DNA from: Escherichia phage cardinal
Reading direction: 5' to 3' (one strand)
DNA length: 64,000 nucleotides
Sequence record: PQ567651.1
Shown: piece by piece, positions 9,141 through 12,398 of the stretch
Position numbering within the stretch: the first letter of the stretch is position 1
Layout of the letters: the number at the start of each line of letters is the position of its first letter
Notes under the pieces: generated by a model
What the model saw: only the letters and a program-made list of their open reading frames with translations
Database searches by the model: none
Told to the model about the DNA's origin: nothing
Translations under genes and position numbers: made by a program

Positions 9141-10025
9141 ATGTTTGCTAAAAATTTCAAATCTTGCGTAACCCTGATTTCTGGTGATGGTCTGTCTATT
9201 TCCGCACTGAACACAGTAACAGACAAACCGCTGGATTTTGTTGTGGCACAGGGTCAACAAGCACATACCATTGGTCTTGTTCGTTTTGAAGATGATGGTT
9301 CCTATGTAAAAGTGTTCTCTGGTTTAGAGGTTATTAAAGTAGGGCAATCTGTTAAGAAAGTTAACAAGAAAAAAGTTAAACGCATTCTTAATGAAAAACT
9401 CCAAGAGATGGAACAAGAGTTTATTGCTGCAAATCCTACTAAAGAATTCTTCTTGGACAAAGAAAGTAAAAAAGCAATTGAGGCTGATATCGTGTTTTCT
9501 CTGCTCCCAGAAACAGAGGCAGATGATTTCTATAACTATGTTGTTGTAGACACTGAAAACAGTATTACCTACGTTCTTAATGGTTCTAAGAAAATTAGTG
9601 AAGATATTGCTGTATTTCTTCGTGAGGTGTTGGGTACTTTCCCAGTCCTGCCGTTTAGTGTACACGAAGAAGCCATTATTAAAGGTTTTGATACCATCTT
9701 AGAAGAACATGAGGCTGAACGACTGACCCTGGGTAATTATATTAAACTTGAAGATTCGGAAGGTGTGGTTGTATGGAGTAAAGAGTCCCTTTATGAATCT
9801 CGTGCAGTAGAACTTATGGAAGATGGTAAGCACGTCGTTGCCATTGGTCTGGAATATGACGGCTTCGTTAACTTTATTGTTGATAAAGAATTTAAGTTGA
9901 GTGGTATTAAATTCCCTAAATACTTTAATGATGAAGAAGGATCTTTTGAAGCATCTGTCCTTCTGTGCTTTAATGAAATCCGTGGTATTATGCAAGACCT
10001 TATCAAGTCAACTATTCAAAAATAA
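9141..10025 (+). CDS. RdgC-like recombination-associated protein
   Basis: FSLLPETE and LGTFPVLPF segments resemble RdgC conserved regions. Confidence 0.5.
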   Translation: MFAKNFKSCVTLISGDGLSISALNTVTDKPLDFVVAQGQQAHTIGLVRFEDDGSYVKVFSGLEVIKVGQSVKKVNKKKVKRILNEKLQEMEQEFIAANPTKEFFLDKESKKAIEADIVFSLLPETEADDFYNYVVVDTENSITYVLNGSKKISEDIAVFLREVLGTFPVLPFSVHEEAIIKGFDTILEEHEAERLTLGNYIKLEDSEGVVVWSKESLYESRAVELMEDGKHVVAIGLEYDGFVNFIVDKEFKLSGIKFPKYFNDEEGSFEASVLLCFNEIRGIMQDLIKSTIQK

Positions 10026-10099
10026 TACTTGACTTACTAATTTAATATGTGTTAATATGCCTACCTACTCAGTTAGGTGGGCTTTTAAGGAGACACACC

Positions 10100-10312
10100 A
10101 TGAAAAAACTTCTTGTCGGTTTACTTTTAGTAATCAGTTCTTATTCTTATGCTGGTCAAATAACTTTAATTAATTCTGGAGAACAAGTTTCTGGAAGTAC
10201 AAAATACTGTTTTTACTCTAACGGTATGTACGACAAGGTTATAGAGGTTTCTGCAAGTCGTCAGTGTCCCTACACACGAACATTCTCAACAGAGAGTTCA
10301 GATGATGAATAG
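10100..10312 (+). CDS. small secreted protein with signal peptide
   Basis: ATG after AAGGAGA; MKKLLVGLLLVISSYSYA signal-peptide-like N-terminus. Confidence 0.5.
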   Translation: MKKLLVGLLLVISSYSYAGQITLINSGEQVSGSTKYCFYSNGMYDKVIEVSASRQCPYTRTFSTESSDDE

Positions 10313-10404
10313 GAGGTAATATTAGCGGTTACATTTTAATCCAACCGGAAGACCTGCACAAATATGTTGACGAGAACACAATTCTTGCAATAGACTACGA
10401 TCAA

Positions 10405-11439
10405 GTGGCGTTCCAAGCGGCTTCAGCTTTAGAACAAAGAAAAATCCACGCTGTACACAAGGCTTCCGGTAATGTAAAAGAGTTTGAAACAAGAACAGAT
10501 TTTTGGGGTAAATCTTCAAAAAATATTGGAGGATGGTTAGGAGCACTTAACGCGCAACGCGAAGCTGCTGGTAAGAAGTTGTTCTCCAAGGAAGATTTTG
10601 AAATAAAAGATGTTCAAATAGTCCCAGAGAATATTTCTTTTACGTTTCAAGCTGCAAAGACAAAAATAACCCAGATGGTGGATCACCTAAAACTTCAAAA
10701 GTATTGCGGTGTCATCGGGGTAGGAAAAACCTTCCGGCATTCTTTCAAAATGCCAAAAGAATATAAATCAGAACGATCAGATTTAAGACCAATCCAATTA
10801 TCAGATACTAAAGATTATCTAGTTGAAAAACATAACGGTGACGTTGTTACTGGTATTGAGGCAGATGATGCTTTAGAAATCTATGGATATGCAGGGTATA
10901 AAGCCTACAAGGAAACTGGTAAGTTTTCTCATATTGTAGCATCTATCGACAAAGATAGCTTACACACACCAAGTTTACTCTTTAACTTTTATAAAGAGGA
11001 TGGTGTTTATAAAAATCCTTGTGTTATTCTGATTGATGAATCTATCGGTGATATCTGGATCGTAGAAAAAGGTAAGAAAAAAGAAGTTAAGGGTTGGGGT
11101 AGTTACTGGTTAGCTTATCAAATGCTAATGGGCGATAAGACAGATAGTATTCGACCTTACCAAGATTTCGATGTTAAGTTTGGAGATATTACTTGCTTTA
11201 ATCTTATTTCCAAATGTAAAACACAGGCTGAACTTTTTCAGACAGTTAAAGATCAGTATTATGAATGGTTCCCAGATGGCGTTAAATTTACTTCTTGGGA
11301 TGGTGAAGAAGTAGAAATGACAACTGATGAATGGATAGAGACAATTTTTCAGTTGGTATATATGAAACGTTGGGCGAATGATGAAACAACTTTTGAAAGT
11401 ATGCTACAAGCATATATTTCAGAGCAGGAGGAACATTGA
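10405..11439 (+). CDS. RNase H / 5'-3' flap exonuclease (T4 rnh-like); true start probably upstream near 10321
   Basis: GIEADDALEIYG and LMGDKTDSIRP (H3TH-like) motifs; in-frame upstream extension encodes ILAIDYDQVAF resembling T4 RNase H ICLIDFSQIAL. Confidence 0.65.
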   Translation: MAFQAASALEQRKIHAVHKASGNVKEFETRTDFWGKSSKNIGGWLGALNAQREAAGKKLFSKEDFEIKDVQIVPENISFTFQAAKTKITQMVDHLKLQKYCGVIGVGKTFRHSFKMPKEYKSERSDLRPIQLSDTKDYLVEKHNGDVVTGIEADDALEIYGYAGYKAYKETGKFSHIVASIDKDSLHTPSLLFNFYKEDGVYKNPCVILIDESIGDIWIVEKGKKKEVKGWGSYWLAYQMLMGDKTDSIRPYQDFDVKFGDITCFNLISKCKTQAELFQTVKDQYYEWFPDGVKFTSWDGEEVEMTTDEWIETIFQLVYMKRWANDETTFESMLQAYISEQEEH

Positions 11440-12398
11440 GTAAATTAACAGACGAACAGAAAGCCTTGATTGTATCTATGAAAGCACAAGGTTATTCTTC
11501 GCGTAAGATTGCACAAGAGGTGTTGGGAAGTTCTACTAAGAAGAGCACAGTAAATGATTACTTAGCTCGTGTAAATTCACCACATCGCGGTGCTCCGCAA
11601 GATAAAGGTGGGCCAGTAATTAAAATTATTGACGTAGAGACAGCACCGGAGATTGTGTATAGCTTCTCACGTTTCAAAGCCTTTATTGCACCTGAACAAG
11701 TTATTCGTCGAGGTTACTTGCTTTCCTATTCCTCTGCTGATTTAGAAACAGGGGAAGTAGAAGGTAAGAACCTTAGCAATTACCCTTTGTTTGACATAGA
11801 TCATACAGATGATTGGGAATTATGTCAAGATCTCTGGCACTTGCTTGATGATGCAGATATTGTGATCGCGCACAATGGTATTAAGTTTGATAAGGCTTAT
11901 ATTAACCAACGTTTTGCTTTTCACGGTATGGAGCCACCATCACATTACGTTGTAATTGATACACTCAAGGCAGCTAAGAAGCAGTTTGCACTACCTTCTA
12001 ATGCGATTAAAGAAATGTGTTTGTATTTTGATACAGAAAACTTTAAACTTGATAATGAAGGTTTTCCTTTGTGGAAAGCATGTTGTGAAGGAGATAGACA
12101 TGCCTTCTTCCGTATGCAAACATACAACGATGGTGATGTTGTTTCTCTTCGAGATCTTTACATCAAACTTCGTGCATGGATTCCACAACATCCTAACGTA
12201 TCTGCATTCTATGACGATGAAAAACTTCGTTGTCCTCGTTGCGGTAAAGAGCACCTTGAAGTTGTTCCTGGTAAGGTTTACACAACAGCGGTTAGTACAT
12301 TCCAAGTGCTAAGATGCACATCATGTAATAGCCTGTCTCGTGGACGTGTTAATTTGCGTAGCAAAGAGAAGCGTGTAAACACTGTTATTGGAATTTAA
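11436..12398 (+). CDS. DEDD-family 3'-5' exonuclease with N-terminal HTH and C-terminal Cys pairs
   Basis: TTG start after AGGAGG; IIDVETAPE (Exo I), IAHNGIKFD (Exo II), C-terminal CPRCG...CTSCN. Confidence 0.5.
   Translation: MSKLTDEQKALIVSMKAQGYSSRKIAQEVLGSSTKKSTVNDYLARVNSPHRGAPQDKGGPVIKIIDVETAPEIVYSFSRFKAFIAPEQVIRRGYLLSYSSADLETGEVEGKNLSNYPLFDIDHTDDWELCQDLWHLLDDADIVIAHNGIKFDKAYINQRFAFHGMEPPSHYVVIDTLKAAKKQFALPSNAIKEMCLYFDTENFKLDNEGFPLWKACCEGDRHAFFRMQTYNDGDVVSLRDLYIKLRAWIPQHPNVSAFYDDEKLRCPRCGKEHLEVVPGKVYTTAVSTFQVLRCTSCNSLSRGRVNLRSKEKRVNTVIGI

What the first reader, a model, noticed from the sequence alone, without database searches (positions are those of the whole stretch)
10310..10410. RNase H/FEN gene has conserved N-terminal codons upstream of any ATG/GTG/TTG: possible AUU initiation
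The first canonical start in frame is GTG at 10405, but the frame is open back to 10309 and encodes ...ILAIDYDQVAF, resembling the active-site-containing N-terminus of T4 RNase H. AGGAGG sits 4 nt upstream of ATT at 10321; in-frame codons from there to 10405 include only ATT, ATC, ATA and CTG as possible starts.
Basis: seen in the sequence. Interest (0 to 1): 0.5.

Follow-up and report, generated by a model that had tools for sequence, protein, structure and literature searches.

The report
Phage flap-endonuclease gene starting at AUU
A DNA-replication nuclease gene of a phi92-like E. coli phage almost certainly begins at the rare, weak start codon AUU, a feature kept across many related phages, while public records start the gene too late and cut off part of its active site.

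Summary
In-frame TGA stops end at 10308, AGGAGGT lies at 10311-10317, ATT at 10321, and there is no ATG/GTG/TTG before GTG 10405.

The window is a Justusliebigvirus (phi92-like), and the gene is phi92 gp085.

Comparative evidence strongly supports initiation at ATT 10321:
- The 28 extra codons are under purifying selection.
- They contain two Asp residues (D25, D27) invariant in 66 homologues.
- Ten related lineages have ATT, ATC or CTG at this position, each 4-5 nt after AGGAGG or GGGGG. One has an in-frame TAA directly before its ATC.
- More distant relatives have annotated TTG, GTG or ATG starts at the same position.
- GTG 10405 is not conserved and has no Shine-Dalgarno sequence.

Every Justusliebigvirus record I checked annotates the truncated GTG form. 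Only one sister-genus record, ESCO13, starts at ATT.

The likely function is translation-limited, IF3-sensitive expression of a nuclease. This is a new member of a known kind (E. coli infC and pcnB). It has not been shown experimentally.

The parts
10100..10312 (+). Upstream gene (phi92 gp086, a small protein with a signal peptide). Its TAG stop (10310-10312) overlaps the Shine-Dalgarno sequence of the nuclease gene and lies 8 nt before the ATT.
   Evidence: ORF list; phi92, PaulScherrer and muut annotations; no terminator-like site between the two genes.
10303..10308 (+). Two in-frame stop codons (TGA TGA) that close the nuclease reading frame upstream.
10311..10317 (+). Shine-Dalgarno sequence AGGAGGT, a 7-nt perfect match to the anti-SD (duplex -11.5 kcal/mol), followed by the 4-nt spacer TAAT.
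   Evidence: The same SD and spacing occur in all near-cognate lineages.
10321..10323 (+). Proposed initiation codon ATT (AUU).
   Evidence: It aligns with ATT, ATC or CTG in 10 related lineages and with annotated TTG, GTG or ATG starts in more distant ones. In L016 the aligned ATC directly follows an in-frame TAA. The ESCO13 record annotates the orthologue from this ATT.
10321..11439 (+). Full flap endonuclease / 5'-3' exonuclease coding sequence: 372 codons plus the TGA stop.
10324..10404 (+). N-terminal extension (codons 2-28) that is missing from database proteins. It contains strand 21-25 and the start of helix 26-37.
   Evidence: Purifying selection: dS is saturated and dN is 0.1-0.45. 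Against phAPEC8 there are 13 synonymous and 5 non-synonymous codon differences. Ser2 is encoded by AGC in some lineages and by TCA in others. Secondary structure.
10393..10401 (+). Codons for D25 (GAC 10393-10395) and D27 (GAT 10399-10401), the first metal-binding Asp motif of the FEN fold.
   Evidence: Invariant in 66 of 66 sequences. They align with D6 and D8 ('DGD') of the Pfam-positive 5'-3' exonucleases P0090 and P0091. Coordinates.
10405..10407 (+). GTG, the start used in public annotations. Here it is interpreted as the internal codon Val29.
   Evidence: The phi92 record notes 'No RBS identified; weak Prodigal statistics'. The codon is ATC, ATA, ATT, GTC or GTT in sister lineages. It falls inside helix 26-37.
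10858..11145 (+). The remaining conserved acidic residues of the nuclease: E180, D182 (10858-10866), D210, D212 (10948-10956), D272, D275 (11134-11145).
   Evidence: Invariant columns of alignment A2; coordinates.
11426..11438 (+). AGGAGG, a 4-nt spacer and the TTG start (11436) of the downstream DnaQ-like exonuclease gene. The TTG overlaps the nuclease stop codon (ATTGA).

Best explanation
The gene at 10321-11439 encodes a 372-residue flap endonuclease / 5'-3' exonuclease of a phi92-like phage. Its translation starts at the near-cognate codon AUU (10321).

Shown by sequence and comparison:
- A perfect 7-nt Shine-Dalgarno sequence sits 4 nt upstream of the AUU.
- No canonical start exists between the in-frame stop at 10306-10308 and conserved, selected coding sequence.
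- The same SD-N4/5-AUU, AUC or CUG architecture is retained in at least ten diverged lineages.

Inferred from established knowledge of E. coli initiation:
- The 30S subunit is anchored by the strong SD, and fMet-tRNA pairs with AUU through its first two bases.
- The protein therefore begins with Met. This Met is probably removed before Ser2.
- IF3 discriminates against such complexes, so output is a few percent to roughly 15% of what an AUG would give, and it depends on the IF3:ribosome ratio.

Inferred purpose: to keep a potentially harmful replication nuclease at a low, fixed dose. Ribosomes terminating at the gp086 stop codon 8 nt upstream may add to the output by re-initiating.

Public annotations that begin at GTG 10405, or at a far-downstream ATG in phAPEC8-type genomes, describe a truncated protein that would most likely be inactive.
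For: Anatomy.

Identity: the window is a Justusliebigvirus and the gene is phi92 gp085.

The extension is coding. tblastn matches reach query residue 1-2 in phAPEC8, 05F01, rV5-like, Aeromonas and Erwinia phages. dS is saturated with dN 0.1-0.45 over codons 2-28, and the L018/L020 comparison gives 8 synonymous against 1 non-synonymous change. Ser2 switches between AGC and TCA codons.

The start position is pinned. The aligned codon is ATT in Justusliebigvirus, Phapecoctavirus, 05F01/L024, L018-25, L059, L061 and L062. It is ATC in the phi1_175008/L014/L016/L049 lineage and in L017, and CTG in L060. All have AGGAGG, GGGAGG or GGGGG 4-5 nt upstream. L016 has TAA immediately before its ATC. No lineage has a canonical codon between the upstream stop and this codon. 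Distant relatives have annotated TTG, GTG or ATG starts at the same aligned position.

Gene callers produce ragged N-termini (229-373 aa) throughout this clade, but uniform 'MGYP' starts in the TTG/GTG/ATG clade.

AGGAGG-N4 is the most common arrangement before genes in this window. SD duplexes are uniformly strong in the near-cognate lineages (-9.3 to -11.5 kcal/mol).

One curated record, ESCO13 KX552041.2, already annotates the orthologue from the ATT.

Mechanistic background:
- Only infC and pcnB are confirmed AUU starts in E. coli. AUU, AUC, AUA and CUG initiate at about 1-2% of AUG, with N-terminal Met (10.1101/063800).
- UUG and AUU initiated 6-8-fold less than AUG and GUG (PMC3592434).
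- IF3 selectively represses AUU (PMC5499595; PMC2268962).
- Non-canonical starts paired with extended SDs give about 10% of AUG in S. aureus (PMC13009471).
Against: There is no direct evidence: no N-terminal peptide, ribosome profiling or reporter data for this or any orthologous gene. I found no paper that mentions this start.

All five Justusliebigvirus annotations I inspected use GTG 10405.

The 4-nt spacer after AGGAGG is at the short end of the E. coli optimum, although it is the norm in this phage.

The 'dosage control' purpose is an inference. The wider family also includes ATG starts, so a weak start is not obligatory for this enzyme. The SD-strength comparison (p=0.012) is not corrected for phylogeny.
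Confidence: 0.88

Rival explanations
1. Translation starts at GTG 10405, as annotated in GenBank, and yields a 344-aa protein. On this view the open frame upstream is untranslated and open by chance.
For: GTG is the first canonical start codon. It is the annotated start in phi92, PaulScherrer, muut, ESCO32 and ZYD. P0001, the 344-aa form, is how gene callers read the gene.
Against: There is no SD before the GTG, and the phi92 annotators themselves wrote 'No RBS identified; weak Prodigal statistics'. The codon is ATC, ATA, ATT, GTC or GTT in sister lineages, some of which have no canonical start for about 147 codons. The upstream 27 codons are under purifying selection. A GTG start would delete the invariant D25 and D27 and a core beta-strand, and would cut helix 26-37.
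Confidence: 0.03
2. Initiation occurs at a different near-cognate codon inside the extension (ATT 10333, ATC 10339, CTG 10354 or ATA 10390) rather than at ATT 10321.
For: These codons exist in frame. Any of them would still retain D25 and D27.
Against: They lie 16 to 73 nt from the only SD, and none is preceded by another SD. Canonical starts in distant homologues align with 10321, not with these codons. Residues 2-4 (S-G-Y/F) are conserved at the protein level, with Ser encoded by both AGC and TCA. Codon 2 is therefore translated.
Confidence: 0.04
3. The AUU is used mainly by ribosomes that have just terminated at the gp086 TAG stop (10310-10312) and re-initiate 8 nt downstream. Expression of the nuclease would then be coupled to gp086 translation. 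This is a refinement of the best explanation, not an alternative start site.
For: The upstream stop lies 0-13 nt before the start in every near-cognate lineage, and it often forms the TAG of TAGGAGG. There is no terminator between the genes. infC's AUU likewise sits 3 nt after the thrS stop. For such junctions, re-initiation and de novo initiation contributed about equally in reporters (PMC3592434).
Against: The strong SD by itself is enough for de novo 30S binding. Close gene packing is general in this phage, so proximity is not specific evidence. The upstream gene differs between lineages (HNH endonuclease, methyltransferase, small ORFs) while the near-cognate start persists.
Confidence: 0.3
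4. The nuclease is made as a fusion with the upstream ORF, through stop-codon readthrough or programmed frameshifting.
For: In the phi1_175008/L049 lineage the two ORFs are in the same frame, separated only by TAG. One metagenome gene caller produced a 444-aa fusion, P0002.
Against: In this window the upstream ORF is in a different frame, and two in-frame TGA codons precede the nuclease frame. The frame relationship varies between lineages. P0002 arises from a caller reading TAG as Gln. The upstream protein carries a signal peptide, which makes no sense on a replication nuclease. There is no slippery run.
Confidence: 0.01
5. The missing start codon is a sequencing or assembly error, or the gene is a decaying pseudogene.
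For: None beyond the absence of a canonical start.
Against: There are 55 independent genomes at 95% identity or higher, 53 of them at 99% or higher, across the site. The exact 26-mer occurs in 7 of 7 fetched loci. The same architecture is found in about 10 diverged lineages from isolates and metagenomes. Purifying selection is strong and the predicted fold is intact.
Confidence: 0.01

Closest known systems
E. coli infC (IF3) AUU start codon
   Same: It is an AUU initiation codon conserved across species and placed a few nucleotides after the stop codon of the upstream gene. It limits translation and makes it sensitive to IF3 (PMC5499595; PMC3592434).
   Different: In infC the product is IF3 itself, so the AUU creates an autoregulatory loop. 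Here the product is a nuclease, so any IF3 dependence would be one-way sensing with no feedback. The phage site has a much stronger SD, and it tolerates AUC and CUG variants in sister lineages.
E. coli pcnB (poly(A) polymerase I) AUU start codon
   Same: An inefficient AUU start is used to keep a nucleic-acid enzyme at a low level (Binns & Masters 2002, as cited). This is the best functional analogy.
   Different: pcnB is a host chromosomal gene. There is no evidence here for the additional transcriptional controls described for pcnB.
S. aureus cvfC1 (AUU) and ccpN (AUA) non-canonical starts with extended SD
   Same: A conserved near-cognate start is paired with a strong or extended SD at a fixed short spacing, and output is about 10% of AUG (PMC13009471).
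   Different: Those are Gram-positive host genes, validated by start-site ribosome profiling and reporters. The phage case rests on comparative evidence only.
T5 D15 flap endonuclease, T4 RNase H, E. coli ExoIX and mycobacterial FEN (5'-3' exonuclease / FEN family)
   Different: Identity to solved members is only 12-22%. There is no PDB or Pfam sequence hit for the window protein. An extra segment of roughly 60-100 residues lies between helix 1 and the rest of the core (residues about 38-125).
GenBank KX552041.2 (Escherichia phage ESCO13, Phapecoctavirus), CDS ESCO13_00118
   Same: It is the orthologue (about 78% aa identity class), annotated from the equivalent ATT as a 372-aa protein with an RBS feature.
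   Different: It is a database annotation only. The accompanying paper does not mention it. It is in a sister genus. The other records I inspected start at a canonical codon and none uses the ATT or ATC: the five Justusliebigvirus records use GTG 10405, and the phAPEC8, nepoznato and phi1_175008 records use a downstream ATG.

Membership tests
Genes initiated at a non-canonical AUU-class codon (infC / pcnB type) | No ATG, GTG or TTG between the upstream in-frame stop and coding sequence that is demonstrably conserved. | tested here: met
   for the window. The same holds in all near-cognate lineages.
Genes initiated at a non-canonical AUU-class codon (infC / pcnB type) | A Shine-Dalgarno sequence at functional spacing from the near-cognate codon. 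| tested here: met
   AGGAGGT lies 4 nt upstream, with a duplex energy of -11.5 kcal/mol. The same spacing is the most common one before ATG genes in this window.
Genes initiated at a non-canonical AUU-class codon (infC / pcnB type) | The near-cognate codon is conserved among orthologues, and it aligns with canonical starts in others. | tested here: met
   About 10 lineages have ATT, ATC or CTG. Distant relatives have TTG, GTG or ATG at the same column.
Genes initiated at a non-canonical AUU-class codon (infC / pcnB type) | Protein N-terminus or ribosome initiation peak mapped to the codon. | not testable with these tools
   I found no proteomic or ribosome-profiling data.
Genes initiated at a non-canonical AUU-class codon (infC / pcnB type) | Expression rises when the codon is changed to AUG, and responds to the IF3 level. 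| not testable with these tools
   This requires reporter fusions and infC mutants or IF3 overexpression.
FEN / 5'-3' exonuclease (PIN-like) family | The characteristic fold. | tested here: met
FEN / 5'-3' exonuclease (PIN-like) family | A conserved cluster of carboxylates for two metal ions, including the first Asp on strand 1. | tested here: met
   D25, D27, E180, D182, D210, D212, D272 and D275 are invariant in 66 sequences and align with Pfam-positive exonucleases. Their spatial clustering in the model was not measured.
FEN / 5'-3' exonuclease (PIN-like) family | A match to Pfam PF02739 / PF01367 above the gathering threshold. | tested here: not met
   The window protein has no hit. The homologues P0039, P0040 and P0066 hit PF02739 below threshold (16-27 bits against 34.3). 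Among the proteins scanned, only the distant homologue P0091 reaches the PF02739 threshold. Membership therefore rests on fold and motifs, not on the Pfam model.
FEN / 5'-3' exonuclease (PIN-like) family | 5' flap or 5'-3' exonuclease activity. | not testable with these tools
   This needs a biochemical assay.

The most novel reading that the evidence does not exclude
The near-cognate start (AUU, AUC or CUG, never AUG) has been held by selection through the whole divergence of a multi-genus phage clade. The reason proposed here is that it makes synthesis of the replication nuclease a read-out of the host's initiation fidelity state, that is, the IF3:ribosome ratio. On this reading it acts as a timer or dosage valve during infection. 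It might work together with a phage-encoded initiator-like tRNA. That tRNA has a CAU anticodon and a 1:72 mismatch, but lacks the three anticodon-stem G:C pairs checked by IF3. It is seen in the near-identical genome OZ035773.1.
Probability: 0.15. Interest if true: 0.65.

Novelty: new member of a known kind. Interest (0 to 1): 0.48.

Why it matters
E. coli itself has only two confirmed AUU-initiated genes, infC and pcnB. This would be a third well-supported case translated by E. coli ribosomes. It is encoded by a phage, conserved across many genera, and has natural AUC and CUG variants. That makes it a ready-made evolutionary series for studying how SD strength compensates for weak start codons and how IF3 fidelity shapes phage gene expression.

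There is also a practical consequence. Every Justusliebigvirus record I inspected, and most of the related records I inspected, carry a truncated protein for this gene. These include 344-aa forms that lack the first catalytic Asp, and 229-aa fragments accompanied by spurious small ORFs. The errors propagate into protein databases, structure predictions and defence/anti-defence studies that use BASEL-collection phages such as PaulScherrer. Gene finders limited to ATG, GTG and TTG will keep making this error.

Tried and rejected
- **Sequence searches against known families.** Plain and profile searches of the 372-aa protein against PDB, Pfam and NCBIfam gave nothing useful. The only PDB hit was a spurious RacA match at E=0.9. 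Family assignment therefore needed PHROGs, distant homologues with Pfam hits and fold comparison.
- **RNA structure around the start.** Folding 10281-10380 gave z=-0.89, which is unremarkable. Rfam gave no match in 9900-10700. I found no evidence for a riboswitch or a structured regulator.
- **Promoters and terminators.** Counts were at chance level, and there is no terminator between gp086 and the nuclease gene. I considered a -10-like TAATAT overlapping the start, but rejected it because the spacer is not conserved between lineages.
- **Fusion or readthrough.** The 444-aa P0002 looked like a gp086-nuclease fusion. It is an artefact of a gene caller translating TAG as Gln.
- **A special tRNA decoding AUU at initiation.** The window has no tRNA. 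The near-identical VEcB genome encodes a tRNA-Ile(GAU), but it has an ordinary elongator shape. I rejected it as an explanation. An initiator-like CAU tRNA in the same genome is recorded under things noticed.
- **Family-wide weak start codons.** This is only partly true. Distant members include ATG starts (CR9, J2-1, RP15, PAK_P1, L033, L034, L042). I therefore restrict the claim to the clade with at least about 47% identity.
- **Literature.** I found no paper describing this start. The T4 genome review, the phi92 genome paper and the published Hecht et al. article are not held in the library. I used the Hecht preprint instead.
Full report
**What is in the sequence**

The window matches Justusliebigvirus genomes (phi92-like E. 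coli myoviruses, subfamily Stephanstirmvirinae). Over 10000-11500 it is 99.8% identical to phages ESCO32 and ZYD and 99.3% identical to phi92. The gene in question is phi92 gp085, annotated as a 'putative 5'-exonuclease'.

- TGA TGA at 10303-10308 closes the frame.
- AGGAGGT lies at 10311-10317, followed by the spacer TAAT.
- ATT is at 10321, and there are then 27 codons with no ATG, GTG or TTG.
- GTG is at 10405 and the stop codon at 11437-11439.
- The upstream gene gp086 ends with TAG at 10310-10312, inside the Shine-Dalgarno sequence.

**It is not an error and not a chance pattern**

The 151 nt around the site are at least 99% identical in 53 GenBank genomes and 95-99% identical in two more. 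The exact 26-mer is present in all seven Justusliebigvirus loci I fetched.

A 28-codon stretch free of canonical starts is not unusual in itself. My estimate of its chance probability is about 0.24. What is unusual is the combination of features:
- It is the only long ORF in the 64-kb window with a canonical-start-free leader of at least 25 codons plus a strong SD and a near-cognate codon.
- The window has 36 AGGAGG sites. Most of them sit directly before a real gene start, and a 4-nt spacer is the most common arrangement.

**The 28 extra codons are translated and needed**

Evidence that they are coding:
- tblastn matches extend to residue 1-2 of the extended protein. This holds in phAPEC8 (72% identity), Klebsiella phage 05F01, rV5-like phages, Aeromonas phiA009 and Erwinia pEp_SNUABM_01.
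- Between Stephanstirmvirinae-like lineages, synonymous sites in codons 2-28 are saturated while dN is 0.1-0.45. The window against phAPEC8 shows 13 synonymous and 5 non-synonymous codon differences. L018 against L020 shows 8 and 1.
- Ser2 is encoded by AGC in some lineages and by TCA in others. That switch happens only under selection on the amino acid.

Evidence that they are needed for function:
- In a 66-sequence alignment, D25 and D27 are invariant, together with E180, D182, D210, D212, D272 and D275.
- D25 and D27 align with the N-terminal 'DGD' of distant homologues that hit the Pfam 5'-3' exonuclease domains.
- An AlphaFold2 model built on that alignment is very confident (pLDDT 96.6, pTM 0.90). 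Residues 21-25 form a strand and 26-37 a helix.

A protein starting at GTG 10405 (residue 29) would lack the first catalytic Asp and a core strand, and it would begin in the middle of a helix.

**Where homologues start**

In distant relatives the aligned codon is an annotated canonical start:
- TTG in rV5-like LL12, Aeromonas phiA009 and Erwinia pEp_SNUABM_01.
- GTG in KpS11-like phages.
- ATG in CR9 and some metagenomic lineages.

In every lineage with roughly 47% amino-acid identity or more, the aligned codon is a near-cognate:
- ATT in Justusliebigvirus, Phapecoctavirus, 05F01/L024, L018-25, L059, L061 and L062.
- ATC in phi1_175008/L014/L016/L049 and in L017.
- CTG in L060.

Each of these is preceded by AGGAGG, GGGAGG or GGGGG at 4-5 nt. 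In L016 an in-frame TAA directly abuts the ATC (taggaggagtaa ATC). There, nothing upstream can be the start.

The codon equivalent to GTG 10405 is ATC, ATA, ATT, GTC or GTT in these lineages. The annotated start therefore does not exist in sister genera. phAPEC8-type records fall back on an ATG about 147 codons downstream and annotate only a 229-aa fragment.

Gene callers give ragged N-termini (229-373 aa) throughout this clade. They give uniform 'MGYP...' starts in the clade with canonical starts.

**Prior recognition**

All five Justusliebigvirus records I inspected use GTG.

One Phapecoctavirus record, ESCO13 (KX552041.2), annotates the orthologue from the ATT as a 372-aa protein with an RBS feature. 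Its genome announcement does not mention this. I found no paper that describes it.

**Mechanism**

Shown here: the strong SD, the fixed short spacing, the near-cognate codon, its deep conservation, and the proximity of the upstream stop codon.

Inferred from established E. coli initiation biology:
- fMet-tRNA reads AUU through its first two bases, so the product starts with Met. Hecht et al. found N-terminal Met for AUC, and measured AUA, AUC, AUU and CUG at about 1-2% of AUG (10.1101/063800).
- Another reporter study found UUG and AUU 6-8-fold below AUG and GUG (PMC3592434).
- IF3 selectively represses AUU (PMC5499595; PMC2268962).
- In S. aureus, conserved non-canonical starts come with extended SDs and give about 10% of AUG (PMC13009471).

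SD-anti-SD duplexes are uniformly strong in the near-cognate lineages (-9.3 to -11.5 kcal/mol). In the ATG lineages they are more variable and weaker on average (-8.8 kcal/mol; Mann-Whitney p=0.012, not corrected for phylogeny).

ATT to ATG is a single-base change, and synonymous sites are saturated. I therefore read the persistence of ATT, ATC or CTG across about ten lineages as selection for weak initiation, that is, for a low dose of a 5' nuclease. This purpose is an inference. The wider family also contains ATG starts.

Re-initiation by ribosomes terminating at gp086 may contribute, as it does at infC-type junctions. It is not required, given the strong SD.

**Rivals**

| Rival | Outcome | Key calls |
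|---|---|---|
| Start at GTG 10405 | Rejected: no SD, not conserved, removes invariant residues | 5, 16, 33, 44, 52 |
| Another near-cognate inside the extension | Rejected: too far from the SD, and residues 2-4 are conserved | 1, 16, 33, 46 |
| Readthrough or frameshift fusion with gp086 | Rejected: frames are inconsistent between lineages and two in-frame TGA codons intervene; the P0002 'fusion' is a gene-caller artefact | 16, 42 |
| Sequencing error or pseudogene | Rejected | 20, 46, 52, 87 |
| Structured RNA, known RNA family, promoter or a special tRNA | No support | 48, 49, 89, 95, 96 |

**Verdict**

Both the protein and the mechanism belong to known kinds. The protein is a FEN-family 5' nuclease. 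The mechanism is AUU-type translation-limited initiation, as in infC and pcnB. This is therefore a new member of a known kind.

Three points add to its interest:
- The deep conservation of the near-cognate start.
- The natural AUC and CUG variants.
- The systematic misannotation in public phage genomes: every Justusliebigvirus record and most related records I inspected are affected.

No direct experimental evidence exists yet.

Noticed in passing
window 11426-11439: The downstream DnaQ-like 3'-5' exonuclease gene (11436-12398) starts with TTG. The TTG overlaps the nuclease stop codon (ATTGA) and is preceded by AGGAGG plus a 4-nt spacer. The two nuclease genes therefore look translationally coupled, and both use weak start codons. 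The ZYD, 05F01 and phi1_175008 records place this gene's start about 40 nt further downstream.
   Followed up: partly
L065 47120-47198 (OZ035773.1, Justusliebigvirus VEcB; outside the window): The phage tRNA cluster has 16 tRNAs, including three with a CAU anticodon. One of these has a 1:72 mismatch and an acceptor stem like that of E. coli tRNA-fMet, but it lacks the three consecutive G:C pairs in the anticodon stem that IF3 and the 30S P-site check. The cluster also encodes a tRNA-Ile(GAU) with an ordinary elongator shape. A link to relaxed start-codon selection is speculative.
   Followed up: partly
L004 (phAPEC8) 842-964 and 1042-1731; L006 (phi1_175008) 675-1040: Gene finders cannot see the ATT or ATC start. 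As a result, these records annotate only a 229-aa C-terminal fragment of the nuclease. They fill the rest of the gene with spurious small ORFs, one in the sense direction in phAPEC8 and two antisense in phi1_175008.
   Followed up: yes
L049 1501-2835 (Logan SRR30397360): A metagenome gene caller produced a 444-aa protein (P0002, 48 member sequences) by reading the TAG between the gp086-like ORF and the nuclease as Gln. This looks like an automatic switch to an alternative genetic code, not a real fusion.
   Followed up: yes
L018-L023, L025 around 1490-1503: In one metagenomic lineage an out-of-frame ATG sits between the SD and the ATT (ctaggaggATGttATT), only 1 nt after AGGAGG. It opens a short ORF of about 17 codons. 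It is probably too close to the SD to be used, but it could compete with the ATT.
   Followed up: no
Records PQ110661.1, MG065639.1 and MG065656.1: Phage ZYD is filed under Vequintavirinae/Vequintavirus, although it is 99.8% identical to Justusliebigvirus in this region. 'Campylobacter phage A150' and 'C3' are 100% identical to these E. coli phages over 150 nt. The taxonomy or host labels are probably wrong.
   Followed up: no
window 10049-10312: The upstream small gene (phi92 gp086) encodes a protein with a predicted signal peptide (MKKLLVGLLLVISSYSYA...) and conserved Cys residues. It sits between the RdgC-like recombination gene (9141-10025) and the nuclease genes, which is an odd neighbour for a replication and recombination cluster. 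Relatives have unrelated genes at this position (HNH endonuclease, methyltransferase).
   Followed up: no
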